Origin: an uncultured Gammaproteobacteria bacterium | Lineage (GTDB): Bacteria > Patescibacteriota > Microgenomatia > CAZETR01 > Amesbacteraceae | Direction of reading: 5' to 3' | Length of the DNA: 64,000 bases | Assembly: GCA_964633995.1 (NCBI GenBank) | Contig: CAZWKN010000005.1 | Location: 920 to 64,919 of the forward strand | Part shown: positions 43,829 through 60,300 of the stretch, in pieces | Layout: the number at the start of each line of letters is the position of its first letter | How positions within the stretch are numbered: the stretch's first letter is position 1 | Notes under the pieces: generated by a model | Told to the model about the DNA's origin: nothing | Seen by the model: only the letters and a program-made list of their open reading frames with translations | Database searches by the model: none | Program-made: the position numbers and the translations under genes

Positions 43829-43869
43829 TCCCTCTCCATAATTGTGGAGAGGGGCAGGGGGTGAGGTGG
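43829..43869. repeat. Palindromic repeat element (CCCTCTCC-ATAATTGT-GGAGAGGGG plus GGGGGTGAGGTGG tail), intergenic copy upstream of miaA
   Basis: A 9-bp inverted repeat flanks an AT loop, followed by the G-rich tail. The same architecture recurs at least 12 times in the window. Confidence 0.85.
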
Positions 43870-43884
43870 TTGAGTTAAAATGAG

Positions 43885-44799
43885 ATGATGGTGTCCAAAG
43901 TTCTCATTATCAGTGGTCCTACTGCGACAGGAAAAACTAAATTTGGGTTAGAAATAGCCAAACAGTTCGACGGTGAAATTGTCTCCGCCGACTCTCGCCA
44001 GGTCTACATAGGTAAAAACATAATTCATGGCAAAGATCTCCCCGTCACTGTCAATTGTCAATCGTCAATTGTCAATTGGAGAGGGAGACGTTTAAAATAT
44101 TATGTAGTCGATGGTGTCAGGGTGTGGTTGTATGACGTAGTCAATCCCGGTGAAGACTTCAGTGTGGCTTTTTGGAAAGAATGCGCCGATTTGGTAATAG
44201 CAGATATTGTTTCGCGCAACAAATTGCCAATTATTGTCGGCGGTTCAGGTCTTTACATCAAATCACTTACCCAAAACCTGTCCCAGGTTTCAGTACCCCG
44301 CAACGAGAAACTAAGAGATCAGCTCCTAAATAAATCTGTCAAATACCTGTTTAATTATTTAAATCGTATCGATTCTTTCCGTGCCGCAGCCCTAAATCAT
44401 TCTGATAAAAACAACCCCCGTCGCCTTGTCAGGGCAATTGAATTATCGTTGTCAAAAGAAAAGTTACACCCCTCTCCTGAATTAAAGAGAGGCCTGTCTG
44501 CCGGCATGGCAGGGGTAGGGGGTGAGGTTTTGCAAATTGGTCTCATTGCCCCCCGCGATTATCTTTATCAGCTCGTAAATCACAGGGTCTCAGATCGCAT
44601 TGCAGCCGGCGCTGCCGCCGAGGACGCAAACTTAGCGAATTCACCAGTTCTTTGGCAAAATCAGGAACATGCCATTATTCGCCACCAACTCACCTGGTTC
44701 AAAAAACAACCCAACGTGACTTTTTTTGACGTTTCAGCTCCAAATTGGCAGGCAAACGCAACGACTTTTATCAAAAATTGGTATAATAACTCTACATGA
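43885..44799 (+). CDS. miaA: tRNA dimethylallyltransferase MiaA (carries in-frame repeat-derived insertions)
   Basis: P-loop ISGPTATGKT and SADSRQVY motifs. The ORF includes the heptamer tract at 44050-44078 and the palindromic element at 44468-44529. Confidence 0.85.
   Translation: MMVSKVLIISGPTATGKTKFGLEIAKQFDGEIVSADSRQVYIGKNIIHGKDLPVTVNCQSSIVNWRGRRLKYYVVDGVRVWLYDVVNPGEDFSVAFWKECADLVIADIVSRNKLPIIVGGSGLYIKSLTQNLSQVSVPRNEKLRDQLLNKSVKYLFNYLNRIDSFRAAALNHSDKNNPRRLVRAIELSLSKEKLHPSPELKRGLSAGMAGVGGEVLQIGLIAPRDYLYQLVNHRVSDRIAAGAAAEDANLANSPVLWQNQEHAIIRHQLTWFKKQPNVTFFDVSAPNWQANATTFIKNWYNNST
44050..44078. repeat. Tandem heptamer tract (TCAATTG x4, one variant) inside miaA
   Basis: tcaattg tcaatcg tcaattg tcaattg encodes ...VNCQSSIVN... 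in a region absent from typical MiaA. A similar tract lies in recJ at 56334-56378. Confidence 0.6.
44468..44529. repeat. Palindromic repeat element copy in frame within miaA (encodes ...HPSPELKRGLSAGMAGVGGEV...)
   Basis: CACCCCTCTCC-TGAATTAA-AGAGAGG plus a CTGCCGGCATGGCAGG palindrome module and a GGGGTAGGGGGTGAGG tail. The reading frame avoids the TGA and TAA in the loop. Confidence 0.85.
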
Positions 44800-45782
44800 A
44801 TTCAAAGATAGAAGTTTCCTACAAAACGGTTATTTTTTCGTTAGTTTTAATCCTATTGGCATGGGTAGTGTGGCACATTTCAGACATCATTCTCATGCTA
44901 TTTATTTCGGTCATCCTCATGTCAGCCCTAAGTCCGGCTGTCGACAAACTGGAAAAGCTAAAATGTCCCCGTTGGTTAGCCATCTTGCTGATTTATTCAC
45001 TTCTGTGGTCATTGGTGGGTGTAGTCATAGCAGGTCTTGTTCCATCCCTGGTGGACCAGACCGCAAAACTTATTGGTTTGCTTCCGGAAGCCATCGGCAA
45101 AATTGAGTTCCTAAATGACCATCAACTGGAAATTAGTCAGGAAATCCTCACCCAGATAGGCGGCTTACCTGGAAACATTCTTAAGTTTACGGTTTCACTC
45201 TTTAGCAATTTGATCAACGTCCTGACCACTATAGTGTTCAGTATTTATCTGTTGTTGGAACGCAAAAATCTAAACTTCCATATGGAAAACTACTTTACAG
45301 AACAGACTTCAACCCGTGTTATTAATTTAATCAAAGCCATTGAGCGCAGATTAGGCAGTTGGGTTAGGGGAGAATTGGTACTTATGCTCGCCGTTGGTGT
45401 CCTAAGTTATATAGGGCTACTGATTTTGGGAGTAGAAATAGCATTGCCTTTGGCTATCATCGCCGGTATTTTAGAGATCATCCCCAACATTGGCCCCATC
45501 CTTTCAGCCGTTCCAGCGGTTATCGTCGCTTTTTCAATTCACCCCATGCTAGCATTGGCCACGATCGCCTTATATTTCTTGGTTCAATTTTTAGAAAATC
45601 ATTTCTTAGTCCCCAAAATTATGGAAAAAGCAGTTGGAGTCAATCCGCTTGTAAGTATCGTTGCCCTCATGGTTGGTTTTAGATTTGCGGGTCCTCTTGG
45701 GGCAGTACTGGCAATTCCTATCATCATTGTTGCGCACTCAATTTTTTCTGAGTTCTCCCCAAAACGCTCCTTGGGGTTATAA
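44796..45782 (+). CDS. AI-2E family transporter (PerM/YhhT-like, UPF0118)
   Basis: 328 aa, about 8 TM helices, typical AI-2E N-terminal region and conserved ...LEIIPNIGP... segment. Confidence 0.75.
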   Translation: MNSKIEVSYKTVIFSLVLILLAWVVWHISDIILMLFISVILMSALSPAVDKLEKLKCPRWLAILLIYSLLWSLVGVVIAGLVPSLVDQTAKLIGLLPEAIGKIEFLNDHQLEISQEILTQIGGLPGNILKFTVSLFSNLINVLTTIVFSIYLLLERKNLNFHMENYFTEQTSTRVINLIKAIERRLGSWVRGELVLMLAVGVLSYIGLLILGVEIALPLAIIAGILEIIPNIGPILSAVPAVIVAFSIHPMLALATIALYFLVQFLENHFLVPKIMEKAVGVNPLVSIVALMVGFRFAGPLGAVLAIPIIIVAHSIFSEFSPKRSLGL

Positions 45783-45793
45783 GTTATAATTAC

Positions 45794-46096
45794 TCCACCT
45801 GGAGACCGTGCGTCTATGCCTCCACAGTCCGGCTTGCCGGATGAAGGGGTAAGGAAAGTCCGGACAGCAGAAGGCAGGGTACCCCGCCGATGAGGCGGGG
45901 ACGCGCAAGCGCTAGATAGTGCCACAGAGACAACGACTCATCCCGCCAATGGCGGGAAAGAGGGTGAAAAGAGGAAAACCTTACCCGCTGCAACCTCCGA
46001 AATGGGTGGGTAGCCTTCCCCAATACCCAAAAGCTTGAGGGCGCAAGATAGATTGACGCATTAAAACAGAATCCGGCTTACCAGTTTCCAGGTGTA
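45794..46096 (+). ncRNA. rnpB: RNase P RNA (bacterial type A), compact roughly 300 nt
   Basis: Conserved P4 strands GGAAAGTCCGGAC (5') and ACAGAATCCGGCTTA (3'). P1 pairing CACCTGGA/TCCAGGTG at the ends. Also ...GCCACAGAGACAA...CCCGCCAATGGCGGG...AGGGTGAAAAGAGG... and GCTTGAGGGCGCAAGATAGATTGAC. Confidence 0.9.
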
Positions 46097-46106
46097 TAAT
46101 ATCTAC

Positions 46107-46268
46107 ATGGATTTCACTGTGCTTTTAACTAACCGCACAGCCCTTCAGGGAGCAATCTCTGTAGTTTTTGGTTTTTTGGTTCTCATGTTTCCCAAATTGC
46201 TTAACTACTTAATTGCTTTTTACTTCATTATCTCTGGCCTATCCCTTCTCCTGCCCCACCTACGCTAA
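46107..46268 (+). CDS. Small membrane protein (53 aa), hypothetical; below the ORF-track size cutoff
   Basis: MDFTVLLTNRTALQGAISVVFGFLVLMFPKLLNYLIAFYFIISGLSLLLPHLR has two hydrophobic helices. Its stop abuts the next gene's ATG. Confidence 0.4.
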   Translation: MDFTVLLTNRTALQGAISVVFGFLVLMFPKLLNYLIAFYFIISGLSLLLPHLR

Positions 46269-46832
46269 ATGCCGTTCTTGCTGGATCCCAAAGGCATTAA
46301 CTTTCGTGATCGCCCCATTCTGTTCATCGACCTAGAAACCACCGGCCTGGATCGACATCATCACGAGATTGTAGAAATTGCCGCCTTACTGGTTTCCCAG
46401 CCAGATTTTACCGTTACCAACTCTTTTTATACTAAAGTTATTCCGACCCATATCGAAACTGCCGATCCAAAAGCTCTCAAAGTGATCAATTATTCACCAG
46501 ATGATTGGCAGGAGGCTATCCCCCTAAACCAGGCTATGGAAGAATTGTCCAACTTTGCTCCTGGTTGCATCTTGGCTGGCTGGTCAGTCCAAACCGAGTG
46601 GGATTTTTTATGCCAATCGTTAGAAGCATGCAAACTCCCGTATTTTTTTACCCACCGGCTATTAGAGGTCTATACTCTGGCTTTTGCCAAATTTTACAAC
46701 GATCAATCCATTTCGTTTCTCAATCTGCCAAATGTTTGCAAAGCTCTAAATATTCGGCTAGATCAGCACAAACCAGATTCGGATATCCGTGCCACCTACG
46801 AGATCTTCAAACGCCTTTTCCCGTCCCCATAA
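46269..46832 (+). CDS. DEDD-family 3'-5' exonuclease (DnaQ/oligoribonuclease-like)
   Basis: Exo I motif ILFIDLETTGLD, Exo II and III regions with H/Y and D. 187 aa. Confidence 0.75.
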   Translation: MPFLLDPKGINFRDRPILFIDLETTGLDRHHHEIVEIAALLVSQPDFTVTNSFYTKVIPTHIETADPKALKVINYSPDDWQEAIPLNQAMEELSNFAPGCILAGWSVQTEWDFLCQSLEACKLPYFFTHRLLEVYTLAFAKFYNDQSISFLNLPNVCKALNIRLDQHKPDSDIRATYEIFKRLFPSP

Positions 46833-47262
46833 TTTCTCTAATTTTTTCAACCACTTTCTCTGTATCACTATCCACCTCCGCATTCCATACTTCCAGCAAG
46901 TTAATTCCAAAAGATTCTAAATATCTTCTTCGATAACAATCATATTTTTTATTGCTCTCGATTTTATGTACACTTCCAAGCAATTCAACCCCAAATCTTT
47001 TTTCCGGGCAATAAAAATCTATCACATATCCATTCACGCTATATTGTCTTCTAAATTTCACACCCAATTTGCCATTTCTCAGACTTTCCCACAACAACTT
47101 CTCTGCCTTTGTTGATTTCTGTCGCAAATCCCTTCTCCGCGCCTTCAATTCTGTACGGTAATACACCCTTTTTCTGTCGTCCACATTTCTAATTTTACTC
47201 TCCCAAAACCCCCCCTCTCCATAATTATGGAGAGGGGGTTGGGGGGTGAGGTGGAAGACCAT
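46807..47262 (-). CDS. DUF559 (Vsr-like endonuclease-fold) domain protein, copy 1; N-terminus runs into the palindromic repeat
   Basis: ...LWESLRNGKLGVKFRRQYSVNGYVIDFYCPEKRFGVELLGSVH... matches the DUF559 core. The first roughly 20 codons (..PPLHNYGEGG..) are encoded by the repeat element at 47210-47240. Confidence 0.7.
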   Translation of the reverse strand: MVFHLTPQPPLHNYGEGGFWESKIRNVDDRKRVYYRTELKARRRDLRQKSTKAEKLLWESLRNGKLGVKFRRQYSVNGYVIDFYCPEKRFGVELLGSVHKIESNKKYDCYRRRYLESFGINLLEVWNAEVDSDTEKVVEKIREIMGTGKGV

Positions 47263-47338
47263 GCGTCACAGTTGGGGTTGGGGGGTGAGGTGGAAGACCA
47301 TATGTCACAGTTGGGTGATGGGGGTGGGGTTGAAAAGG
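47210..47338. repeat. Palindromic repeat element cluster with an internal tandem duplication (about 39-nt unit x2)
   Basis: CCCCCCTCTCC-ATAATTAT-GGAGAGGGGG, then GGTTGGGGGGTGAGGTGGAAGACCAT(G/A)(C/T)GTCACAGTTGG twice. The listed minus ORF 47225..47437 (PPHPPTP repeats) is derived from this repeat. Confidence 0.85.
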
Positions 47339-47354
47339 GTTTAGTAGCCTACCA

Positions 47355-47385
47355 CCAAAAAACCCCGCCATCGGCGGGGTTTTTG
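47355..47385. terminator. Bidirectional rho-independent terminator
   Basis: AAAAAACCCCGCC-ATCG-GCGGGGTTTTT. Lies 18 nt downstream of the minus-strand zinc-ribbon gene. Confidence 0.75.
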
Positions 47386-47402
47386 TGATCGAAAAGCAAG
47401 GC

Positions 47403-47546
47403 TTAGGCAGCACCGATCTTATACATACCGGTTCCACAAACTGGACATTTGCCCTTCATTGCGGCCTTACCATTTTTCATCGTTACTTTTTGGGCACTAG
47501 GATCTTCTCTTTTGGTTCTACATTTTACGCAAAACATTGAAGCCAT
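47403..47546 (-). CDS. Small zinc-ribbon protein (47 aa; two CxxC pairs)
   Basis: MASMFCVKCRTKREDPSAQKVTMKNGKAAMKGKCPVCGTGMYKIGAA. Strong SD GAGGAGGTGAGG 7 nt upstream of the ATG. A terminator follows. Preferred over the overlapping + ORF 47449..47727. Confidence 0.6.
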   Translation of the reverse strand: MASMFCVKCRTKREDPSAQKVTMKNGKAAMKGKCPVCGTGMYKIGAA

Positions 47547-47821
47547 GACTGCCTCACCTCCTCTCGATTCTCAAATTTGTAATAATGATTTAACACTTTG
47601 CCATCCTCCATGGTCTAGCCACCTGGCCAAAGCTAATTGTAAAAGCAAGGCAAGGATAGTCACGATCCCGGTTCTTGTCAAGTCGAAGACTATTTGCTTC
47701 ATCGGCAAATTTAGCTCGGGTGTATAAAAACTTCCCTTCATCACCCAACCATACCACACCTATTCAAGCACGGCAACGCAGCACTGGAAAACTCTGCCTT
47801 TTTAAGTTATCCTTAACAAAC

Positions 47822-49003
47822 ATGTTATTAAACAAGAAAACACTCGGCTATGTCTTAGGGGCTATTTCTATTTTTTCGCTTTCAGCCATTGTCTCCTTTA
47901 GTATTTTCAAATCTGTAAAAAGTTATCCGTCGCAAGTTGTTCCCGTTCCCACCCCAGCAAAATCAACTTCTAAAAAATCAAAAATAGACCCCAAGATTCC
48001 CAGGACCGAAGTTTGTCCTATCAATGGCTTGCTTTATACCAAGGGTGAAAAAGACATCTGGGTCACCAGAAGGCCCATCGCCGCCATGATAGAAAATCAT
48101 GAAGACTCTCGTCCCGCTTCGGGATTGAGTAGCGCGGATGTGGTTTATGAAGCCGTAGCGGAAGGCGGGATAACTCGTTTCATGGGCATCTTCTACTGCA
48201 ATATTTCAGAAAACACGACCCTGGCTCCTGTCAGGAGCGCCCGTATTTACTTCGTCAAACTTCTTTCGGAATACGATCCTCTGTATAACCATGTGGGCGG
48301 TGCCGGAAATTGCGATGATCCCACCGTCGATGATCGTGCCAAAGCGCTATGTTTTCTAAGGAGAAACAATATCAAAGACATGGATCAATTTGGTCGTGCT
48401 GGGGATTTTAAGACCTGTCATCGGTTAACCAATCGACTGGACCAGGACGTCGCCTATGAGCACACCATGGGCTGTTGGACAGACGAGCTGTACAAGGCCG
48501 CCGCCAAAAACGATTGGACAAATGTCGACGAAAAAGGGGTCCCTTGGGACAAAAATTTCAAACCCTGGAAATTCAAAGATGATTCCAAGCAAGCTGGGAT
48601 TGTTAATCGCATAGCCTTCGATTTTTGGAAATCCAAGCAACTTTACTCTGTAGTTTGGAACTACGACTCAGGAAGTAACTCGTATCTTAGAGAAAATGGT
48701 GGTCAAAAGGCGATTGATTTAAACACCGATGAACAACTCGCCGCCAAAAACGTTGTCATCCAATTTGTCCCAGAGACAGGGCCATTGGATGAACATCTTC
48801 ACATGTATTATGAGATAACCGGGACCGGCAAGGCTCTAATCTTTCAAGATGGGGGAGTAATTGCAGGAACATGGTCCAAACTATCTCTCTCATCCAGAAC
48901 CAGATTTTATGACGCCAAAGGCGTGGAAATAGCGCTAAATAAAGGCCAAACATGGGTCGAGCTTCTTCCCAAAGGCAACGCCGTAGACTATCCTCAACCA
49001 TAA
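47822..49003 (+). CDS. DUF3048-like (YerB-type) secreted or lipoprotein-like protein
   Basis: N-terminal TM or signal, then ...VTRRPIAAMIENHEDSRPASGLSSADVVYEAVAEGGITRFMGIFY... resembling the DUF3048 core. Start set at MLLNKK (47822) rather than 47675. Confidence 0.55.
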   Translation: MLLNKKTLGYVLGAISIFSLSAIVSFSIFKSVKSYPSQVVPVPTPAKSTSKKSKIDPKIPRTEVCPINGLLYTKGEKDIWVTRRPIAAMIENHEDSRPASGLSSADVVYEAVAEGGITRFMGIFYCNISENTTLAPVRSARIYFVKLLSEYDPLYNHVGGAGNCDDPTVDDRAKALCFLRRNNIKDMDQFGRAGDFKTCHRLTNRLDQDVAYEHTMGCWTDELYKAAAKNDWTNVDEKGVPWDKNFKPWKFKDDSKQAGIVNRIAFDFWKSKQLYSVVWNYDSGSNSYLRENGGQKAIDLNTDEQLAAKNVVIQFVPETGPLDEHLHMYYEITGTGKALIFQDGGVIAGTWSKLSLSSRTRFYDAKGVEIALNKGQTWVELLPKGNAVDYPQP

Positions 49004-49071
49004 CTGCTCACACATTGTCCTCAATCCTCTTGATTTTCTCAACACTTCTGGTATCTTCAACTTAACAAACT

Positions 49072-49650
49072 ATGCTAAAAGATCTATTCATCTCCAAGGC
49101 CCGGGTTCACATTCTCGAAACATTTCTTTCTGATCCCACTCAAATGTTTCATGTGCGTGATTTAGTCAGAAGAACAGGGGAAGAAATAAATGCTATTCGT
49201 CGTGAATTGTTGCGCATGGAAGAAGCTGGTATGGTCAAGAAAGAACCTCGTGGTAACAGGCTTTATTACTGGTTTCGGAAAGATTACGTTTACTATTCGG
49301 ATCTATTAAGTTTAGTTGCCAAAAACGTCGGTCTTGGTGCAGACCTCATTAAAAACAAATCTAAATTGGGTAGGGTTTCATTCATCATGCTTTCAGGTCG
49401 CTTCGTCCGCCATCAGCCCAAAAAAACTCCCGACGAAGTAGAGTTATTAGTTGTTGGTGATATCGTTCTTCCTGAATTGGCCAGTATTGTTAGGGCCGAA
49501 GAGACCAAACGGGGTCAGGCAATTAATTACACACCCATGACCGACGACGAATTAAAGTTTAGAAGAAGCCGCAGAGACCCGTTTCTTCTTGGCATTTTGA
49601 CCGGAGGTCGGGTTATAATTCTAGGGTCCGAAGAAGACCTGGTGGGTTAA
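49072..49650 (+). CDS. Winged-helix transcriptional regulator-like protein with an uncharacterized C-terminal domain
   Basis: N-terminal wHTH-like segment (ARVHILETFLSDP...VRDLVRRTGEEINAIRRELLRMEEAGMV). 192 aa. Confidence 0.4.
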   Translation: MLKDLFISKARVHILETFLSDPTQMFHVRDLVRRTGEEINAIRRELLRMEEAGMVKKEPRGNRLYYWFRKDYVYYSDLLSLVAKNVGLGADLIKNKSKLGRVSFIMLSGRFVRHQPKKTPDEVELLVVGDIVLPELASIVRAEETKRGQAINYTPMTDDELKFRRSRRDPFLLGILTGGRVIILGSEEDLVG

Positions 49651-49833
49651 ATGCAACATAAAATACTAAAAACAGGCCACAGTCTTTGTGTGACAATTCC
49701 TGCAAATTTCGCCCAGGTTTTGGGTCTAAAGCCCGGACAGCCTGTCAAAGCCGAAGTTAACATGCTAGACCAAACTCTTACATACAAATTTACCAGCGTA
49801 GGCCAGCTTACCCTACTGCCGTCTTCAAAATAA
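49651..49833 (+). CDS. AbrB/MazE/SpoVT-family swapped-hairpin DNA-binding protein
   Basis: KTGHSLCVTIPANFAQVLGLKPGQPVKAEV matches the SpoVT/AbrB fold motif. 60 aa. No toxin gene follows. Confidence 0.55.
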   Translation: MQHKILKTGHSLCVTIPANFAQVLGLKPGQPVKAEVNMLDQTLTYKFTSVGQLTLLPSSK

Positions 49834-49834
49834 T

Positions 49835-52014: not shown

Positions 52015-52028
52015 TCTAGAATGACTTT

Positions 52029-52388
52029 GTGAACCTCAGATATAACAGAGTTTCTCTTAAACCACGTCGCAGACAATTAAGAAAAAATTCAACTCATTGT
52101 GAACAGTTGTTATGGGGAGAAATTAGAAACAGGAAGCTCAAATATAAATTTATTAGGCAGTATAGCGTAGATGGTTATGTAATGGATTTTTATTCACCGG
52201 AAGCAAGATTGGGAATCGAGATCGAAGGGGAGATTCATAAATTTACAAAGAAATACGATAAATATCGAGAAAAATATATAAGTGCGTTTTGGATAAAGAT
52301 TTTAAAATTTAAGAACGATGATATCCAAAACAATATTACCTTTGTCGTGGAAACAATAAAACGAAACCTTGACTCCCCCTCTATTTAA
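52029..52388 (+). CDS. DUF559 (Vsr-like endonuclease-fold) domain protein, copy 2; C-terminus and stop are supplied by the repeat loop
   Basis: ...LLWGEIRNRKLKYKFIRQYSVDGYVMDFYSPEARLGIEIEGEIH... The last codons ..SPSI plus TAA lie inside the palindromic element at 52375. Confidence 0.7.
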   Translation: MNLRYNRVSLKPRRRQLRKNSTHCEQLLWGEIRNRKLKYKFIRQYSVDGYVMDFYSPEARLGIEIEGEIHKFTKKYDKYREKYISAFWIKILKFKNDDIQNNITFVVETIKRNLDSPSI

Positions 52389-52487
52389 CTAAAGAGAGGG
52401 GGGCTGGGGGGTGAGTTAAACACAAACAAATCAAGTTTTCTCCCCCTCTATTTAACTAAAGAGAGGGGGGCTGGGGGGTGAGTTACA
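52375..52487. repeat. Two tandem copies (about 66-nt spacing) of the palindromic element, variant loop TATTTAACTAAAG
   Basis: CCCCCTCTA-TTTAACTAA-AGAGAGGGGGG CTGGGGGGTGAG occurs twice. Confidence 0.85.
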
Positions 52488-55049: not shown

Positions 55050-55066
55050 GCTGTTAAAATCATATC

Positions 55067-56683
55067 ATGACTCTCGACTCTATCATCCAACTTCTTCTCA
55101 AAAATCGCGGTCTGACGACCAAAAAAGCTATCGCGGATTTTTTTTCACCTCCCCATCCCAACGATATCATCTCACCCTTTGACTCCAAACCTGCTATCGA
55201 CTTAATTCATAGTCACATAGCTCAAAATAACCCCATTGCCGTTTATGGCGACTACGACGTCGATGGTATCTGTTCAACAGCAATTTTGTGGGAGACGTTG
55301 CATGCAGAATATCCGCATGTTTTTCCCCACATTCCTCACCGAAGGCTTGAAGGTTACGGCTTGTCTATTGCCGGGATCGATCATTGTCTTGCCCAGGGTG
55401 CCAAACTAATTATTGCTGTAGACAACGGTATTACTGCCGTGGATCAGGTTAAGTATTGTCGTGACCATGGATGTGACATTTTAATCATCGACCACCACGA
55501 AAAAGGTTCAACGCTTCCGGATACGCAATATGTACTACACGCTACGGATTGTTGTGCCGCCGGCCTGACCTGGTTTTTCTGCCGAGACTACATTAAAAAA
55601 TTCCCCTCTCCTGAATTAAGGAGAGGGGGCAGGGGTGAGGTTTTAGAACTAGTCTCTCTCGCCACCATATGTGACATGGTTCCTCTAATTGGCACCAACC
55701 GTTCTTTTGCCAAATTTGGATTAGAGCAATTAAACCACACCACCCGCCCCGGCCTCCTTGCCTTATTTCAAAAAGCCTCTCTAACCCCTAACACCCAACC
55801 CCTAACCACCTATCATATCGGTTTTCTCATCGGTCCTCGTCTCAATGCCATGGGTAGATTGGAGCACGCTATCGACAGTCTCCGTCTGCTTTGTACCAAA
55901 GATCCGATCAAGGCAGATTCAATCGCCACTTTACTAAACGACACCAACAAGCTTCGCCAGGATCTTACTGAGTCAGCCGTAAAAAACGCAACAAATTCAC
56001 TATCCCCTAGCTCCCTATCCCCAGTAATAGTTGTCTCCAGCTCGGATTACGACGAAGGGGTTATCGGGTTAATCGCTTCCAAGTTAGTTGAAAAATTTCA
56101 TCATCCGGCAATCGCTATTAGTGTAGGGGAGACCGTGTCCAAAGGTTCAGCCAGATCTATTCCCGGTTTTGATATTACAGCTCATTTGCGCCAGTTTTCC
56201 GGTTTGTTGGTAAGCATAGGTGGTCACACCATGGCCGCTGGTTTCACCATCGAAACCTCAAGGATCCAGGATCTAGTATCTAGCATCTCCCATCCAGATA
56301 TCCCCAAGGAGTTGTTGCAAAAAACCCAACGTGTCGATTGCGAAATTCCATTGTCGATTGTCAATTCTCAATTATCAACTGCACTCAAATCTTTCGAGCC
56401 ATTTGGCCTTGGCAACCCCACTCCGGTTTTTCAATCACAAGCCGAAATTTCATCGATCAAAACCATGGGCAGTATGGGACAACATGCCAGGTTAACTCTA
56501 AAGGATTGTCCATTCGATGCCGTCTGGTTCAACGCCACATTCCCCTCTCCTGAAATGAGGAGAGGGGGTAGGGGTGAGGTTGTGGGAGAAGTTTGGAACA
56601 TAATTTATACTCTCTCCGAAAACACCTACAACGGCCAAACCAAACTCCAGCTACTCATCAAATCCGTTACCCCCTCTCCATGA
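55067..56683 (+). CDS. recJ: Single-stranded-DNA-specific exonuclease RecJ (DHH/DHHA1), carrying two in-frame palindromic-element insertions
   Basis: DHH motifs (VYGDYDVDGICS; ILIIDHHE) and a DHHA1 region (GGHTMAAG). The stop TGA lies in the loop of the repeat copy at 56670. Confidence 0.85.
   Translation: MTLDSIIQLLLKNRGLTTKKAIADFFSPPHPNDIISPFDSKPAIDLIHSHIAQNNPIAVYGDYDVDGICSTAILWETLHAEYPHVFPHIPHRRLEGYGLSIAGIDHCLAQGAKLIIAVDNGITAVDQVKYCRDHGCDILIIDHHEKGSTLPDTQYVLHATDCCAAGLTWFFCRDYIKKFPSPELRRGGRGEVLELVSLATICDMVPLIGTNRSFAKFGLEQLNHTTRPGLLALFQKASLTPNTQPLTTYHIGFLIGPRLNAMGRLEHAIDSLRLLCTKDPIKADSIATLLNDTNKLRQDLTESAVKNATNSLSPSSLSPVIVVSSSDYDEGVIGLIASKLVEKFHHPAIAISVGETVSKGSARSIPGFDITAHLRQFSGLLVSIGGHTMAAGFTIETSRIQDLVSSISHPDIPKELLQKTQRVDCEIPLSIVNSQLSTALKSFEPFGLGNPTPVFQSQAEISSIKTMGSMGQHARLTLKDCPFDAVWFNATFPSPEMRRGGRGEVVGEVWNIIYTLSENTYNGQTKLQLLIKSVTPSP
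55601..55641. repeat. Palindromic element copy in frame within recJ (encodes FPSPELRRGGRGEV)
   Basis: TCCCCTCTCC-TGAATTAA-GGAGAGGGGG CAGGGGTGAGG. Confidence 0.85.
56334..56378. repeat. Degenerate tandem heptamer tract (TCGATTG/TCAATTN) inside recJ
   Basis: tcgattg cgaaattccat tgtcgattg tcaattc tcaatta tcaa encodes ...DCEIPLSIVNSQLST... The heptamer family matches the miaA tract. Confidence 0.5.
56541..56581. repeat. Second palindromic element copy in frame within recJ (encodes FPSPEMRRGGRGEV)
   Basis: TCCCCTCTCC-TGAAATGA-GGAGAGGGGG TAGGGGTGAGG. Confidence 0.85.
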
Positions 56684-56995
56684 TTATGGAGAGGGGGGGC
56701 CTGCCCGCCGGCAGGCGGGGGTGAGGTGGAATATTATGTCATCGCTAAACCCGCCCTGGCGGGTGTGGCGATCTTGGGTAGAGATTGCTTCTCTTCGTTC
56801 GCAATGACATAAAACTGTTCGTGCACCCCCCTCTTAAATTAAGAGGGGGGAAGGGGGGTGATATCTCTCTTATGGTGTCATCGCGAACCCGCCCCGGCAA
56901 TCCCATATTGTCATCGCGAACCCGCCTTGGCGGATGTGGAGATCTACATCTCCCTCTCCTGAAATGAGGAGAGGGAATAAGGGAGAGGTCATAAT
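56668..56995. repeat. Dense composite repeat cluster: three palindromic-element variants plus three copies of a second repeat (TGTCATCGCGAACCCGCC-YTGG-CGGRTGTGG) and an inverted partial copy
   Basis: Element variants at 56670-56730 (loop ATGATTAT plus a GCCTGCCCGCCGGCAGGCGGG module), 56826-56865 (CTCTTAAATTAAGAG) and 56948-56992 (CTCTCCTGAAATGAGGAGAG). TGTCATCGC... copies at 56737, 56876 and 56908, with an inverted GCAATGACA copy at 56801. Confidence 0.8.
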
Positions 56996-56998
56996 AAG

Positions 56999-57184
56999 CT
57001 AAGTTCTAGCTGTTCTTGCTCTTTGTGCGACCTTTTTATCTTCTTCAGCTCTTCTCCTTTGCGCTTCAGTGGGTCTGAATTGTGGCACTAGCCCCAAAAC
57101 CGCATTCATAATCATATCTCTCATGGGCAACCCCGCTTCGTGAGCGCAACCAAATTTTGCAGGTTTTGCTTCTGTTGCTGCCAT
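56999..57184 (-). CDS. Small hypothetical protein (61 aa) with basic C-terminus
   Basis: Canonical SD AAGGAGGTGA 7 nt upstream of the ATG (minus strand). Confidence 0.5.
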   Translation of the reverse strand: MAATEAKPAKFGCAHEAGLPMRDMIMNAVLGLVPQFRPTEAQRRRAEEDKKVAQRARTART

Positions 57185-57205
57185 ATTTTTTCACCTCCTT
57201 CAACT

Positions 57206-57228
57206 AAAAAACCCCGCTTTTTGCGGGG
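57206..57228 (-). terminator. Intrinsic terminator-like hairpin (CCCCGC-AAAAA-GCGGGG plus TTTTTT on the minus strand) 9 nt upstream of the small gene's SD; possible attenuator
   Basis: GC hairpin and U-tract read on the minus strand, placed between the upstream leader and the RBS of 56999..57184. Confidence 0.5.
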
Positions 57229-57362
57229 TATTTGTAAAAAATAAATAACGTTTCTTACATTCCCCCGCGGATTGCCCAGTTAAGGACAATACGAAGCCCG
57301 CCCTTAATAATGGCGTGCTGGGAAAATGTATGCATCAAAGACATGTGAAACATTTTAATATC

Positions 57363-57391
57363 TTGACTTAAGTTTAGTCAAGAACGATAAT
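57363..57391 (+). promoter_or_regulatory. Sigma-70-like promoter (TTGACT-N17-GATAAT) directed toward aspS; -35 embedded in a palindrome TTGAC-N10-GTCAA
   Basis: Near-consensus -35 and -10 hexamers with 17-nt spacing, about 190 nt upstream of the aspS ATG. Confidence 0.5.
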
Positions 57392-57537
57392 ACCCTCAAA
57401 GCGTTATTAGTCTGCCGACACCAGACGAGCTTCCCGAAAAAACCGGGACGGACCCATCCGTAAAAGTGGAAATCAAGACCCCTGATGTGGATGGCACCTT
57501 GGATCCGCACCATTAAAGGGTCTTTTTTGTTTTTATT

Positions 57538-57580
57538 TCCCCTCTTAGATTAAGAGGGGAACCCGAAGGAGGGGTGATAT
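57538..57580. repeat. Palindromic element variant (CCCCTCTTAGATTAAGAGGGG plus GGAGGGGTGA) overlapping the aspS ribosome-binding site
   Basis: The tail AAGGAGGGG ends 9-11 nt before the aspS ATG. Confidence 0.75.
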
Positions 57581-57583
57581 TTT

Positions 57584-58900: not shown

Positions 58901-59805
58901 CCAAGAAATTTCTTATCCGCAAATTCAAGCTGCTATTTCATAAATCCAAAAAAAAAGATTTTTCTCACCTGGCGGTCTTTTTATTGACGGTTTTAATCGG
59001 TCTAAATCTTTCATCACCATCAAAAATCCCGGTTACTAGGCAGTCGGTTTTAGGGCAATCATCAAAATTTCTCAAAGCCTCGCCACCCGTCGTTTCCGCT
59101 AAAAGCGTTTTTATTCTCGATATAACTTCTGGGGAAGTGGTCTATCAAAAACAAGCAGATTCCGAGGTCTACCCGGCATCCACCACCAAAATGATGACAG
59201 CTGTAATTGCCAAAGAAACTTTCGACCCGAATCAAGTCCTCACCATTTCCCGTCTATATAATCTTGGGAGTCAGGATCTCAAATTGCCGGTAGGCGGGAA
59301 AATTACTATAGAAAAATTGCTGTACGCTCTCCTGGTTTCTTCTTCAAACGATGCGGCCGAAATACTTGCCGAAAATTACCCCGGAGGAAGAACCGCTTTC
59401 GTTGAGGCCATGAATCGCAAGGCTTCGGAACTGTTACTTCACCACACTCATTTTGAAAATCCTACCGGCTTGGACCAAATAAACCATTATTCATCCGCAG
59501 CCGATTTAGCCAGGTTGGCCAAACATCTGATTTCAGTTCCGGAATTAGCCAGGATCGTTGGGACTCAAACCGCCGTCCTTTCCACCGTCGACTTTTCCGG
59601 GGTCTACACGGTCACAAATGTAAACCAGCTGTTGGGTAAAGTGCCTGGCGTTATGGGGGTAAAGACTGGTTTTACAGATTTAGCAGGCCAGGTCTTAGTG
59701 ACTTACGTCAATCGCGAGAACAGACCTCTAATCATTAGTGTCCTGGGCAGTTTAGACCGTTTTTCTGATACCGAATCCCTCATCACCTGGGCCTATTCGC
59801 AATAA
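58897..59805 (+). CDS. D-alanyl-D-alanine carboxypeptidase (S11 family, PBP5-like)
   Basis: SxxK ASTTKMM, SxN SSSND and KTG KTGFT motifs. N-terminal TM or signal. Confidence 0.8.
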   Translation: MTKKFLIRKFKLLFHKSKKKDFSHLAVFLLTVLIGLNLSSPSKIPVTRQSVLGQSSKFLKASPPVVSAKSVFILDITSGEVVYQKQADSEVYPASTTKMMTAVIAKETFDPNQVLTISRLYNLGSQDLKLPVGGKITIEKLLYALLVSSSNDAAEILAENYPGGRTAFVEAMNRKASELLLHHTHFENPTGLDQINHYSSAADLARLAKHLISVPELARIVGTQTAVLSTVDFSGVYTVTNVNQLLGKVPGVMGVKTGFTDLAGQVLVTYVNRENRPLIISVLGSLDRFSDTESLITWAYSQ

Positions 59806-60130
59806 CAACTTCTCCACAACCTTGTCCATATCCCTTTCAACTTCATTATTCCAAAATTCCAGTACAACTATGCCAAACGCCTCTAAATATTTTTTTCTGT
59901 AACCATCATATCGATCCCCAATCTTTTTTCCGGACAATAAAAATCCATTACATACCCATTCACGCTGTACTGTCTTCTAAATTTTACCCATAATTGATTG
60001 TTTCGCAATTTTTCCCAAAGCAATTTCTCTGCATTCGTCGATTTTTGTCGTTAATCTCTTCTTCTGGCCTTGAGTTCAGTACGATAATATACTCTTTTTC
60101 TATCGTCCATGCCATAATTTTACTCTTCTT
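59752..60130 (-). pseudogene. DUF559 gene copy 3, disrupted (frameshifted); only a 61-aa C-terminal ORF remains
   Basis: Nucleotide sequence 59905-60125 is near-identical to 46925-47205 (DUF559 copy 1) but with a broken frame. The remnant ORF ...KKYLEAFGIVVLEFWNNEVERDMDKVVEKL matches the copy-1 C-terminus. It is followed by the same palindromic element. Confidence 0.7.
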
Positions 60131-60133
60131 ATT

Positions 60134-60300
60134 TCTCCCCTCTCCACAATTGTGGAGAGGGGCAGGCCTGCCTGCCGGCAGGCAGGGGGTGAGGTGGTAC
60201 GCGTGTCGCGGAATTATTGTGAAGTTATGGTTACAGCGTGTGGGCAGGGGGTGAGGTGGTACACACGTCGCGGAACTATTGTGAAGTTATGGTTACAGCA
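60134..60300. repeat. Palindromic element (loop ACAATTGT plus GCCTGCCTGCCGGCAGGCAGG module) followed by a diverged tandem duplication (about 62-nt period x2)
   Basis: CCCTCTCC-ACAATTGT-GGAGAGGGG, then GGCAGGGGGTGAGGTGGTAC..CGTCGCGGAA.TATTGTGAAGTTATGGTTACAGC repeated at 60181 and 60243. Confidence 0.85.

What the first reader, a model, noticed from the sequence alone, without database searches (positions are those of the whole stretch)
44468..44529. A longer variant of the palindromic element is inserted in frame in miaA
Within the MiaA ORF, the element CACCCCTCTCC-TGAATTAA-AGAGAGG is joined to a second palindrome (CTGCCGGCATGGCAGG) and to the GGGGTAGGGGGTGAGG tail. Together they encode ...HPSPELKRGLSAGMAGVGGEV... 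The same GCC..GCCGGC..GGC module appears in intergenic copies at 56697-56722 and 60155-60190, so the in-frame copy is a full composite element rather than a chance match.
Basis: seen in the sequence. Interest (0 to 1): 0.7.

Follow-up and report, generated by a model that had tools for sequence, protein, structure and literature searches.

The report
Triplex-motif DNA repeat translated inside miaA
A 60-base copy of a widespread hairpin/triplex-forming DNA repeat (the BoxC/PIT/TM family, which in E. coli lies only between genes) sits in frame in a floppy linker of the tRNA-modification gene miaA of a CPR bacterium, and the repeat family proves tightly linked to a small nuclease gene (DUF559) that may be its missing partner.

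Summary
Window 44469-44528 lies in frame in a MiaA ORF (43885-44799). It consists of a pyrimidine arm, a loop, an eroded purine arm, a 21-nt nested palindrome ("module B") and a G-rich tail. It is one of 12 same-strand copies in the window. The family is not new. It matches the class II intrastrand-triplex motif known as BoxC/PIT/TM (Holder 2015), reported as always intergenic in E. coli. What differs here:
- Copies are translated in conserved genes: MiaA, RecJ twice, and two stop codons supplied by element loops.
- About 35% of 119 MiaA orthologs carry such an element at this one linker, with at least 26 gains or losses. AlphaFold gives low confidence only there.
- Module B is a hairpin in loop 2. 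It recurs across species and also occurs in frame in other MiaA and RecJ orthologs.
- All three DUF559 (Vsr-like nuclease) genes in the window abut copies. DUF559 genes in unrelated phyla are also flanked by inverted triplex motifs (8 of 10 independent loci, 24 hits against 0.06 in shuffles), as is E. coli ycjD.

Best reading: a selfish repeat tolerated in a disordered hinge, and possibly a REP/RAYT-like system with DUF559 as its nuclease.

The parts
43885..44799 (+). miaA (tRNA dimethylallyltransferase) ORF, 304 aa, which hosts the in-frame element
   Evidence: ORF listing. Pfam IPPT E=3.5e-32. PDB MiaA hits. All family-invariant residues are present. The AF2 model matches MiaA structures, with TM-score 0.68 to the tRNA-bound E. 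coli enzyme.
44469..44528 (+). In-frame composite triplex-motif (TM) element that encodes PSPELKRGLSAGMAGVGGEV
   Evidence: Only one of the three forward frames is open through it. It lies in the low-pLDDT linker.
44469..44477 (+). Pyrimidine (Y) arm CCCCTCTCC
   Evidence: Identical to the Y arm of the intact copies.
44478..44485 (+). Loop 1, TGAATTAA. This is the 'coding-competent' loop variant, with no stop codon in the frame used.
   Evidence: Identical to the loop of the RecJ copy at 55603. Most intergenic copies have loops (ATAATTGT, ATGATTAT) that put TAA or TGA in that frame.
44486..44492 (+). Eroded purine (R) arm AGAGAGG (intact copies have GGAGAGGGG)
   Evidence: Only 6/9 Watson-Crick pairs remain. 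The fold is not better than shuffles, z=-1.44.
44493..44513 (+). Module B: a nested palindrome CCTGTCTGCCGGCATGGCAGG (21 nt) in loop 2, encoding LSAGMAG
   Evidence: It differs by one substitution and one inserted T from the perfect 20-nt palindrome CCTGCCTGCCGGCAGGCAGG at window 60165-60184 and in L083 and L207. Removing the 20-mer from copy 60138 restores the basic tail of copy 43830 exactly.
44518..44528 (+). G-rich tail GGGGGTGAGGT. This is the third (reverse-Hoogsteen) arm and mirrors the purine arm.
   Evidence: GGGGTGAGG occurs 9 times, all on the + strand, against 0.43 expected. It is mirror/triplex-compatible 9/9 in intact copies. A T follows it in 14 of 14 copies.
43830..43866 (+). 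Basic TM copy in the spacer; it ends 18 nt before the miaA start codon
   Evidence: WC 8/9, triplex 9/9. L083 has a composite copy at the equivalent place.
55603..55640 (+). Basic TM copy in frame in recJ (FPSPELRRGGRGEV), after the DHH domain
   Evidence: 11 of 120 RecJ orthologs carry a TM peptide at this site.
56542..56579 (+). Basic TM copy in frame in recJ (FPSPEMRRGGRGEV), inside the OB-domain region
   Evidence: At least 8 of 120 orthologs carry one at this site.
56670..56726 (+). Composite TM copy with module B; the recJ stop codon TGA lies in its loop (...PSP*)
60137..60194 (+). Composite TM copy with the perfect module B, next to a degenerate DUF559 gene
   Evidence: (two hairpins, z=-4.0).
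47209..47251 (+). Basic TM copy abutting the 5' end of DUF559 gene 1; a tandem duplicate of the tail follows
   Evidence: (D15).
52375..52483 (+). Two tandem TM copies (52375-52416 and 52442-52483). The stop codon TAA of DUF559 gene 3 lies in the first loop (...PSI*).
   Evidence: (D4).
56826..57576 (+). Three further, more divergent TM copies (56826-56860, 56951-56987, 57537-57576) in the 900-nt recJ-aaRS spacer
46807..47262 (-). DUF559 (Vsr-like PD-(D/E)XK nuclease) gene 1
   Evidence: Pfam PF04480 E=4.6e-28. The ORF as listed reads through the TM in antisense, so the true start is uncertain.
52029..52388 (+). DUF559 gene 3
   Evidence: Pfam PF04480 E=1.7e-25.
59785..60110 (-). Degenerate DUF559 copy 2. 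It is 76% identical in nucleotides to gene 1 over 229 nt and has the same position relative to its TM.
   Evidence: (D2), and tblastn E=2e-38. No ORF of 80 aa or more.

Best explanation
The miaA segment is a translated and partly decayed copy of a short interspersed DNA repeat of the BoxC/PIT/TM class. This class has a pyrimidine arm, a complementary purine arm, and a G-rich third arm that mirrors the purine arm, so it can form a hairpin or an intrastrand triplex. A 21-nt palindrome is nested in the second loop of this copy.

Shown:
- It belongs to a 12-copy, single-orientation family in the window.
- It is read in the only open forward frame.
- It replaces and lengthens the native linker between the tRNA-binding helix (R180, R183) of the insertion domain and the strand that returns to the core.
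- That linker is the only low-confidence part of the predicted structure.
- The same linker holds such elements in about a third of related MiaA proteins, with many gains and losses.
- RecJ shows the same behaviour at three sites.
- Conservation acts on the DNA rather than the peptide. Third-codon positions are 85% identical in the element against 41% in the rest of the gene, and copies resemble paralogs in their own genome.

Inferred:
- The copy has no required function in MiaA. It persists because the hinge tolerates a disordered Pro/Gly/Arg-rich peptide.
- Copies with a stop-free loop are the ones that survive inside genes.
- Spread is by a hairpin or single-strand-dependent route rather than classical transposition, since there are no terminal inverted repeats or target duplications and the strand orientation is uniform.
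- The most likely partner is the DUF559 Vsr-like nuclease. Its genes are flanked by these motifs here and in distant phyla, in the way REP elements flank RAYT genes.
For: Family and statistics.

Class II triplex geometry: 9 of 11 copies score 17-18 out of 18, while only 4 of 20,000 random window positions reach 16. The pattern and names come from Holder et al. 2015.

Frame: the other two forward frames hit TGA or TAA in the loop.

Linker location: AF2, PDB alignments, and E. coli tRNA-binding Arg167/Arg170, which align with invariant R180/R183.

Presence and absence: L082 and L083 carry the short form at the same codon position, while L084-L086 have none in 20 kb.

Ortholog survey: 42 of 119 orthologs carry a TM at the site, Fitch parsimony needs at least 26 changes, and the root is inferred TM-free. 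All TM-like peptides in MiaA orthologs map to this one site. RecJ has three recurrent sites.

Composite copies elsewhere: L083:7096, L207 miaA, L210 miaA and P0208 recJ.

DNA-level conservation. Erosion of the miaA copy. No TSD or TIR.

DUF559 link:
- All three DUF559 genes in the window abut TMs.
- L109, L154 and L038 show the layout [TM->] ATG..DUF559..stop [<-TM].
- E. coli ycjD ends PSP* inside a degenerate TM, with TMECO#9 downstream.
- 8 of 10 DUF559-anchored loci from other phyla have flanking motifs: 24 hits against 0.06 in dinucleotide shuffles and 0.009 per kb in 1.27 Mb of control loci.
- The DUF559 clade includes Vsr and a homing endonuclease.
Against: - No mobilisation event was observed. 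Every history is inferred from presence and absence among proteins 50-67% identical.
- The shortest TM-bearing linkers (16-19 aa, 10 cases) are as long as TM-free ones (median 17). Simple insertion therefore does not explain every case, and replacement, gene conversion or insertion plus deletion must be invoked.
- The DUF559 layout is not uniform. Tails face inward in L109, L154, L216 and L038, whereas Y arms face inward in the window, Deinococcus and ycjD.
- 2 of 10 DUF559 loci had no detectable motif.
- L083 and L209 have TMs but no DUF559 within about 20 kb.
- Holder et al. found no in vivo triplex, no promoter or terminator activity, and no link to mobile elements in E. coli.
- Translation of the segment is inferred from the intact ORF and was not observed.
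Confidence: 0.8

Rival explanations
1. There was one ancient insertion. A TM entered the miaA linker once in an ancestor of these Microgenomates and was inherited vertically. It was kept similar to other genomic copies by gene conversion and decayed beyond recognition in many lineages. The window's copy is then an old resident that later acquired module B, rather than a lineage-specific insertion.
For: The site and frame are the same in L082 and the window. The window copy is eroded. The shortest TM linkers are as long as TM-free linkers, as expected if one turns into the other by substitution. Some 'TM-free' loops look like remnants, for example NPSPKVIKRRESEV and SPKSRGEV.
Against: Parsimony on the loop-free tree infers a TM-free root and at least 26 changes. 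Copies differ in loop length (7 or 8 nt), in the reading frame of the tail (GEV, VSY or VRY), and in loop-2 inserts. Canonical MiaA proteins already have a linker of comparable length. Copies resemble paralogs in their own genome, which fits fresh insertion as well as it fits conversion.
Confidence: 0.3
2. A nucleic-acid hairpin at this position of the miaA message or gene is itself selected, for example as a translational pause between domains or as a processing or regulatory site. The TM would be one way of supplying it.
For: A different perfect palindrome, AAGGACGGTCCTTTC-aagcgt-GAAAGGACCGTCCTT, occupies the same site in L209. Its peptide type (xPFxxER[ST]) is conserved in 12 orthologs. Third-codon positions in the element are conserved.
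Against: Most orthologs (about 60 of 119) have neither hairpin type. L085 and L086 show no structure there. The window's own copy has lost most of its stem. The same repeats also occur in RecJ and in spacers. PIT elements showed no promoter or terminator activity in E. coli.
Confidence: 0.1
3. The encoded peptide is selected at the protein level. A flexible, basic, Gly-rich (RGG-like) linker next to the tRNA-binding helix would improve nucleic-acid binding, and the repeat was recruited for that purpose.
For: Both hosts in the window bind nucleic acids (MiaA and RecJ). The frame used gives RRGGRGE or KRG...GGE. The element lies about 12 residues after the invariant tRNA-binding arginines.
Against: Orthologs read the tail in other frames and give non-basic peptides such as REGLGVSY and GEGRGVRY. 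Conservation is highest at third-codon positions. A third or more of orthologs do without it. The segment is predicted to be disordered.
Confidence: 0.05
4. The resemblance is chance or low-complexity similarity in a native Pro/Gly-rich linker.
For: The motif is G/C-rich and short. Pattern hits in high-GC metagenomes are expected at a low rate.
Against: A 26-nt exact pattern has a second copy with 3 mismatches, against 0 expected. Module B matches 19 of 20 positions. There are twelve co-oriented copies. TM-free relatives have an unrelated linker.
Confidence: 0.01

Closest known systems
BoxC / PIT (potential intrastrand triplex) / TM-TMECO motifs of E. coli and other bacteria (Holder et al. 2015, PMC4666352; Hoyne and Maher 2000, 2002 as cited there)
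   Same: The three-part order is the same: a 9-nt pyrimidine arm, loop, complementary purine arm, short loop, then a G-rich arm that mirrors the purine arm (class II purine motif). The sequence is nearly the same (CCCCTCTCC/GGAGAGGGG/GGGGTGAGG against CCCTCTCCC/GGGAGAGGG/GGGGTGAGGG). Both are multi-copy, lack TIR and TSD, and have no known function. Pairs in inverted orientation occur in both. The loci are variable between relatives.
   Different: In E. coli the motifs are 'always intergenic' and show no strand bias. Here copies are translated inside conserved genes, supply stop codons, and all 12 share one orientation. Loop 1 is 8 nt (3-6 in TMECO). The register is shifted by one base. The tail has only GG at its end, so a canonical G4 or a full 9-triplet G run is weaker. 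A nested hairpin in loop 2 is common. The host is a CPR bacterium with 44% GC. The family was catalogued in Proteobacteria and cyanobacteria.
Rickettsia palindromic elements (RPE; Ogata et al. 2000, 2002, via PMC10969869 and PMC1779305)
   Same: Both are interspersed palindromic repeats found in spacers and in frame in unrelated housekeeping genes. Both are read in a frame free of stops and sit at positions compatible with the fold. Some insertions are shared by all members of a lineage, for example PheT with RPE-7.
   Different: RPEs are 100-150 bp, belong to unrelated sequence families and are confined to Rickettsiales. The present element is 38-60 nt, has triplex geometry, and belongs to a family spread over many phyla. 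No sequence homology to RPEs was seen or expected.
REP / REPIN elements and their RAYT transposases (own knowledge: Nunvar 2010, Bertels and Rainey 2011, Ton-Hoang 2012)
   Same: A short hairpin repeat is dispersed in many copies, and a single small nuclease gene is flanked by two copies in inverted orientation. There is no TIR or TSD. A single-strand or hairpin-based mechanism is suspected.
   Different: The flanked gene is a DUF559 Vsr-like PD-(D/E)XK nuclease, not an HUH/Y1 transposase. The conserved GTAG of REPs is absent. The repeat has a third arm. No activity of DUF559 on the repeat has been shown.
MITEs and intragenic ERIC, RUP or Correia elements (Delihas 2007, PMC2759123; review PMC10969869)
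   Same: Both are small non-coding repeats that sometimes fuse in frame with host ORFs.
   Different: MITEs have terminal inverted repeats and target-site duplications and derive from IS elements. None of these features is present here.

Membership tests
BoxC/PIT/TM class II intrastrand triplex motif | A 5' pyrimidine arm followed by a Watson-Crick complementary purine arm (hairpin) | tested here: met
   9/9 pairs in 7 of 11 window copies and 8/9 in 3 more. Intact copies fold with z=-3 to -4. The miaA copy itself keeps only 6/9.
BoxC/PIT/TM class II intrastrand triplex motif | A 3' third arm that mirrors the purine arm (G.G:C, A.A:T or T.A:T triplets) | tested here: met
   9/9 triplet-compatible in 10 of 11 copies. 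The miaA copy scores 8/9 in a shifted register. Only 4 of 20,000 random positions reach 16 out of 18 combined. The arms co-vary across lineages while keeping the mirror relation.
BoxC/PIT/TM class II intrastrand triplex motif | The TMECO pattern CCCTCNCCC-N3-6-GGGNGAGGG-N3-GGGNGAGGG (Holder 2015) | tested here: inconclusive
   The window consensus is CCCCTCTCC-N8-GGAGAGGGG-N2-6-GGGGTGAGG. The letters are the same but shifted by one base, loop 1 is longer, and loop 2 reaches 21-28 nt when module B is present. The pattern used for the metagenome scan also recovers canonical high-GC TMs.
BoxC/PIT/TM class II intrastrand triplex motif | Many dispersed copies per genome, beyond chance | tested here: met
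   12 copies in 64 kb against about 0 expected. There are 5 in the 18 kb of L083.
BoxC/PIT/TM class II intrastrand triplex motif | Intergenic location with no strand bias (described for E. coli, not a structural definition) | tested here: not met
   Three copies are internal to ORFs and two carry stop codons. All 12 copies are on the + strand.
BoxC/PIT/TM class II intrastrand triplex motif | The isolated strand actually forms a triplex | not testable with these tools
   CD and NMR evidence exists only for the E. coli sequence. The folding tools here model Watson-Crick pairs only.
Rickettsia palindromic elements (RPE) | In-frame presence in unrelated conserved genes at structurally permissive sites | tested here: met
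   The MiaA linker has pLDDT 51-62. RecJ has three variable sites.
Rickettsia palindromic elements (RPE) | Length of 100-150 bp and membership of one of the RPE sequence families | tested here: not met
   The element is 38-60 nt and its sequence is that of TM motifs.
MITE | Terminal inverted repeats and target-site duplication | tested here: not met
   Only trivial 2-nt flank matches were found, with no TIR outside the internal hairpin.
REP/RAYT-like system | The nuclease gene is flanked by two repeat copies in inverted orientation | tested here: met
   This holds for DUF559 in L109, L154, L038, L216, L217 and L221. In the window only one side of each gene carries copies.
REP/RAYT-like system | The nuclease is an HUH/Y1 (IS200/IS605-like) transposase, and the repeat carries a conserved GTAG | tested here: not met
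   The flanked gene is Pfam DUF559 (PD-(D/E)XK, Vsr clade). There is no GTAG in the consensus.
REP/RAYT-like system | The nuclease binds or cleaves its repeat | not testable with these tools
   This needs biochemistry with YcjD or DUF559 and TM DNA.

The most novel reading that the evidence does not exclude
BoxC/PIT/TM triplex motifs have had no known function or means of spread since their description in the 1990s. They may be the cis elements (ends or target sites) of a widespread family of tiny selfish cassettes that encode a DUF559 Vsr-like nuclease, analogous to REP elements and RAYT. On this reading, gene-less inverted TM pairs and solo TMs are the non-autonomous or empty-site forms. In some CPR lineages these solo forms have gone further and colonised disordered linkers of housekeeping proteins, so that a triplex-forming DNA repeat is routinely translated.
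Probability: 0.5. Interest if true: 0.85.

Novelty: new variant of a known kind. Interest (0 to 1): 0.66.

Why it matters
Three reasons.

First, it extends the 'selfish DNA inside protein-coding genes' phenomenon. The best-known case is Rickettsia. This adds a second, unrelated repeat class and the CPR/Patescibacteria, whose small genomes are usually regarded as streamlined. One inter-domain hinge of MiaA, and three sites in RecJ, have been hit or retained dozens of times, which gives a natural map of insertion-tolerant positions.

Second, it shows that BoxC/PIT/TM motifs are not always intergenic. Annotation and alignments of CPR proteins will contain repeat-derived peptides (PSPELRRGGRGEV, PSLKLREGLGVSY and similar) that should not be read as protein motifs.

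Third, and most useful, the tight association with DUF559 nuclease genes across Proteobacteria, cyanobacteria, Deinococcus and CPR turns an old open question into a bench experiment. What these repeats are and how they spread can be tested in E. coli, where ycjD and 23 TM copies are available.

Tried and rejected
1. The genome-contig scan for MiaA relatives was saturated by generic P-loop patterns. It returned only loci at 45% identity or below and no close orthologs. I used them later only as a 1.27-Mb background.

2. Rfam at gathering thresholds found only RNase P RNA (45798-46096) and nothing at the repeats. tRNA scanning found one tRNA-Pro far away.

3. My first peptide regexes for TM-derived loops under-counted, giving 24 and then 29. 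The corrected count is 42 of 119 and may still miss decayed copies.

4. Codon-wise identity is misleading for pairs whose elements differ in loop length, because the tail is then in another frame. Only same-frame pairs were interpreted.

5. I tested whether the second palindrome type at the MiaA site (L209) is a repeat family. It occurs only once in 21 kb, so this is not supported.

6. I looked for a TSD, a TIR or a conserved target and found none, apart from an invariant T after the tail.

7. I looked for a transposase near the repeats. All neighbours are housekeeping genes, apart from DUF559.

8. I tested E. coli for filled and empty polymorphism of the ycjD-TM cassette. About 38% of 5,426 genomes break homology roughly 40 nt before TMECO#9. 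The cause is a TetR/RND-efflux island inserted there, which fits 'TM loci are rearrangement-prone' but says nothing about DUF559 mobility.

9. GC skew does not identify the leading strand here, because it is negative on the gene-rich + strand. The orientation bias therefore cannot be assigned to replication or to transcription.

10. The centre of module B, TGCCGGCA, matches the YGCCGGCR motif linked to a DUF559 protein (VsrA) in Caulobacter. Loop-2 hairpins of other lineages have other sequences, so I treat this as a coincidence until tested.
Full report
**1. The observation**

Window 44467-44529 reads CACCCCTCTCC-TGAATTAA-AGAGAGG-CCTGTCTGCCGGCATGGCAGG-GGTA-GGGGGTGAGG-TT. It lies inside ORF 43885..44799 (+), whose product contains ...KEKLHPSPELKRGLSAGMAGVGGEVLQIGL....

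The ORF is MiaA:
- Pfam IPPT scores E=3.5e-32.
- Solved MiaA structures 2qgn, 3d3q and 2zm5 match at 1e-29 to 5e-16.
- All residues invariant in 88 relatives are present.

The organism is a CPR bacterium close to Candidatus Amesbacteria/Microgenomates, judged from the source names of the best homologs. The window has 44% GC. The same protein is encoded on an independently assembled contig.

**2. It is a repeat family, not chance**

- CCTCTCC-N4-14-GGAGAGG occurs 7 times, against 0 in shuffles.
- GGGGTGAGG occurs 9 times, all on the + strand, against 0.43 expected.
- Relaxed scans give 11-12 copies, all on the + strand, all between 43.8 and 60.3 kb.

The first 43 kb is 93% coding and has no copies. 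The last 21 kb is 80% coding.

Copy 60137-60194 carries the perfect 20-mer CCTGCCTGCCGGCAGGCAGG. Copy 56670-56726 carries a variant. The miaA copy differs from the 20-mer by one substitution and one inserted T, making it 21 nt. Removing the 20-mer from copy 60138 gives exactly the tail of the basic copy 43830. Module B is therefore a discrete hairpin nested in the second loop of the element.

**3. What the family is**

It returned contigs of 36-75% GC, with a median of 62%.

These hits are not accidents. The stems extend beyond the bases I specified, the spacer is 3 nt in 45 of 91 cases, and GG follows the tail in 67 of 91.

A full-text search for the strings led to Holder et al. 2015 (PMC4666352). 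The motif is the 'TM' or TMECO intrastrand triplex motif, earlier called BoxC and PIT. Its pattern is CCCTCNCCC-N3-6-GGGNGAGGG-N3-GGGNGAGGG. This is a class II purine motif in which the third arm mirrors the purine arm.

I scored the window copies for both pairings. Nine of eleven reach 17-18 out of 18, while only 4 of 20,000 random window positions reach 16. The structural definition is met. The exact TMECO pattern is met only approximately, because the register is shifted by one base and loop 1 is 8 nt.

[quoted passage not shown] It has no promoter or terminator activity, no detected in vivo triplex and no link to mobile elements, but its loci are unusually variable between strains.

**4. 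Copies inside genes**

All genic copies are read in the same frame, CCC TCT CC. = P S P. The other two forward frames run into TGA or TAA in the loop.

Besides miaA, the window has:
- two copies internal to recJ (55603-55640, FPSPELRRGGRGEV; 56542-56579, FPSPEMRRGGRGEV);
- the recJ stop codon in the loop of a third copy (PSP*);
- the stop of a DUF559 gene in the loop of another copy (PSI*).

The genic copies have loops TGAATTAA or TGAAATGA, which are open in that frame. Most spacer copies have loops with a stop in that frame.

**5. Is it an insertion in miaA?**

I obtained DNA for ten orthologous loci, which are strongly syntenic.

| Locus (protein) | Sequence at the MiaA site |
|---|---|
| L082, L083 | The short form of the same element at the same codon position. 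L083 has four more copies nearby, one with module B just upstream of miaA. |
| L085, L086 | An unrelated linker and no copy in 20 kb. |
| L084 | A divergent, element-derived-looking linker (PPLTAKTRAAGEKLRGGWGRRY), but no copy detected by the scans in its 20 kb. |
| L207 (P0033) | The perfect 20-mer module B at the same site, read in another frame (PACRQAG). |
| L210 | A variant loop-2 hairpin. |
| L208 (the closest ortholog) | A different 24-nt insert in loop 2. |

Among 119 orthologs, 42 carry a TM-derived peptide at this site. The median linker is 24.5 aa with a TM and 17 aa without.

On a tree built without the linker, parsimony needs at least 26 changes and infers a TM-free root. This is a rough neighbour-joining tree, so the number is approximate.

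Every TM-like peptide in these orthologs maps to this one site. RecJ orthologs show the same pattern at three discrete sites, occupied in 11, at least 8, and 6 of 120. One ortholog (P0208) carries the composite form RRGLPAGKAGDGGEV.

The element is therefore an insertion in the sense that TM-free relatives lack it. However, it partly replaces the native linker. The window has 28 aa against 16-17, and the ten shortest TM linkers are no longer than TM-free ones.

**6. Structure**

The AlphaFold2 model from 88 sequences has mean pLDDT 92.3. Only about residues 190-213 are low (10-residue block means 62 and 51). They lie between helix 178-189 and strand 214-221.

The model matches MiaA structures, best the tRNA-bound E. 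coli enzyme (2zm5, 3foz; TM-score 0.68).

E. coli tRNA-binding residues Arg167 and Arg170 (PMC8234997) align with invariant R180 and R183, in the helix just before the element. The segment is therefore the hinge where the tRNA-binding insertion domain returns to the core. Whether it touches tRNA could not be tested.

**7. The constraint acts on DNA**

For pairs read in the same frame, third-codon identity is much higher inside the element than in the rest of miaA:
- window and L082: 85% against 41%;
- L083 and L208: 85% against 49%.

Copies also resemble paralogs in their own genome. The window miaA loop is identical to that of recJ copy 55603, and the L083 miaA copy shares its 7-nt loop with L083:13461.

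This indicates either recent insertion from within the genome or gene conversion, rather than selection on the peptide.

The window's miaA copy is itself the most eroded. It keeps 6/9 stem pairs and folds with z=-1.4, against -3 to -4 for intact copies.

**8. Mechanism of spread, and an unexpected partner**

There are no terminal inverted repeats and no target duplications. There is no transposase nearby.

However, a 229-nt repeat next to two copies turned out to be a DUF559 gene, which has the Vsr-like PD-(D/E)XK nuclease fold. The window holds three DUF559 genes (46807-47262, 52029-52388 and a degenerate one at about 59785-60110), and each directly abuts a TM. By my estimate the chance of that in 64 kb is roughly 1e-4.

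Two are in high-GC metagenome contigs (L109, L154) and one is in a control locus (L038, 43% GC).

All three have the layout [TM->] 4-5 nt ATG...DUF559...stop [<-TM]. In L038 the arm sequence differs (CTCCCTTT/AAAGGGAG/GAGGGATTT) but the geometry is the same. Several of these copies have hairpins in loop 2, which is the counterpart of module B.

In E. coli K-12, ycjD is annotated as a DUF559 protein. It lies next to fabI, ends ...CCC TCT CCC TGA (PSP*) inside a degenerate TM, and has TMECO#9 downstream.

As an unbiased test I anchored on DUF559 instead. A tblastn search against plasmids gave 21 records. In ten genus-level representatives, a sequence-agnostic triplex finder found flanking motifs in 8. 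That is 24 hits, against 0.06 (maximum 1) in 200 dinucleotide shuffles of the same loci and 0.009 per kb in 1.27 Mb of control loci.

The arms co-vary between lineages while keeping the mirror relation.

The DUF559 clade includes Vsr and a group I intron homing endonuclease. None of the 25 papers in the library that mention DUF559 links it to these repeats. I cannot exclude a report in journals that the library does not hold.

The association is shown. That DUF559 acts on the motifs is inference. Two layouts exist (tails inward, or Y arms inward), and two of the ten loci had no detectable motif.

**9. Comparison with known systems, and verdict**

- Structurally the element belongs to the BoxC/PIT/TM class.
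- It behaves like Rickettsia palindromic elements, which are in-frame copies at permissive sites of housekeeping genes, but it is not one.
- It is not a MITE.
- The DUF559 arrangement resembles REP elements and RAYT, with a different nuclease.

I file it as a new variant of a known kind.

The most novel reading not excluded is that DUF559 cassettes are the long-sought source of BoxC/PIT/TM repeats. I put this at about 50%.

Noticed in passing
window 46807-47262(-), 52029-52388(+), ~59785-60110(-); also L109:7556-7982, L154:149-774, L038:18450-19200, L211 (E. coli ycjD), L213-L218, L220, L221: DUF559 (Vsr-like nuclease) genes are flanked by class II triplex motifs. This holds for 3 of 3 genes in the window and for 8 of 10 independent loci from other phyla (24 hits against 0.06 in shuffles). 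E. coli ycjD ends PSP* inside a degenerate TM. The arrangement is REP/RAYT-like and is not linked to BoxC in any of the 25 DUF559 papers found.
   Followed up: yes
window 55603-55640, 56542-56579, 56670-56726 (recJ ORF 55067-56683): recJ carries two further in-frame copies of the repeat and takes its stop codon from the loop of a third. RecJ orthologs carry such peptides at three recurrent sites (11, at least 8, and 6 of 120).
   Followed up: yes
metagenome loci L087-L166: The same hairpin-plus-tail motif occurs in contigs of 36-75% GC. The high-GC consensus CCCTCTCCC-loop-GGGAGAGGG-N3-GGGGTGAGGG also fits a canonical four-tract G-quadruplex pattern whose first two tracts are sequestered by the hairpin. 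Some copies have an upstream CCCTCACCCC, which makes a longer palindrome. About 11% have a second small hairpin in loop 2.
   Followed up: partly
L209:10754-10789 (miaA of P0011); peptide type in 12 orthologs: A different perfect palindrome, AAGGACGGTCCTTTC-aagcgt-GAAAGGACCGTCCTT, encodes the linker (KDGPFKRERTVLK) at the very same MiaA site. It occurs once in 21 kb. The peptide type xPFxxER[ST] is conserved in 12 orthologs. This is unexplained.
   Followed up: partly
window 43830-60194: All 12 copies share one orientation (+), as do 5 of 5 in L083 and 2 of 2 in L209. One of those lies among minus-strand genes. E. coli shows no such bias. GC skew is negative on the gene-rich strand, so the link to replication or transcription is unresolved.
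   Followed up: partly
window 43858-43884, 57565-57586; L109, L154, L038 upstream of DUF559: The G-rich tail (GGAGGGGTGATA or GGGGTGAGG) often sits 4-18 nt before a start codon, where a Shine-Dalgarno sequence would be. Examples are the aaRS gene at 57584, miaA at 43885, and DUF559 genes elsewhere. This may be exaptation as a ribosome-binding site.
   Followed up: no
L221 (Pseudanabaena galeata pPg_02 152577-153873); L213 (Synechocystis) 501-968: In L221 a TM pair, a DUF559 domain and a second TM pair all lie inside one annotated 4.9-kb CDS. In L213 the DUF559 CDS reads through a TM. Whole cassettes may therefore also sit in frame in larger ORFs, or the annotation may simply read through them.
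   Followed up: no
window 44501-44508, 60171-60178; PMC12907096: The centre of module B, TGCCGGCA, matches YGCCGGCR. That is the motif methylated by ScmA and functionally tied to a DUF559 protein (VsrA) in Caulobacter. Loop-2 hairpins of other lineages differ, so this may be a coincidence.
   Followed up: no
window 47235-47312 and 60181-60299: Tandem duplications of the tail plus about 30-50 nt of downstream sequence (39-nt unit 95% identical; 57-nt unit 93% identical) follow the two DUF559-adjacent copies.
   Followed up: no
window 56737-56931: A second small repeat, TGTCATCGCGAACCCGCCCCGGC, occurs 3 times (family D14). It lies in the expanded 900-nt recJ-aaRS spacer, interleaved with TM copies.
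   Followed up: no
window 45798-46096: There is a bacterial RNase P RNA gene (Rfam RF00010, 113 bits) between the AI-2E transporter gene and the RNase T-like gene.
   Followed up: no
E. coli fabI-ycjD spacer (L211, L222, L223): In about 38% of 5,426 complete E. coli genomes, homology breaks roughly 40 nt before TMECO#9, where a TetR/RND-efflux island is inserted. This is consistent with the reported instability of TM loci.
   Followed up: partly
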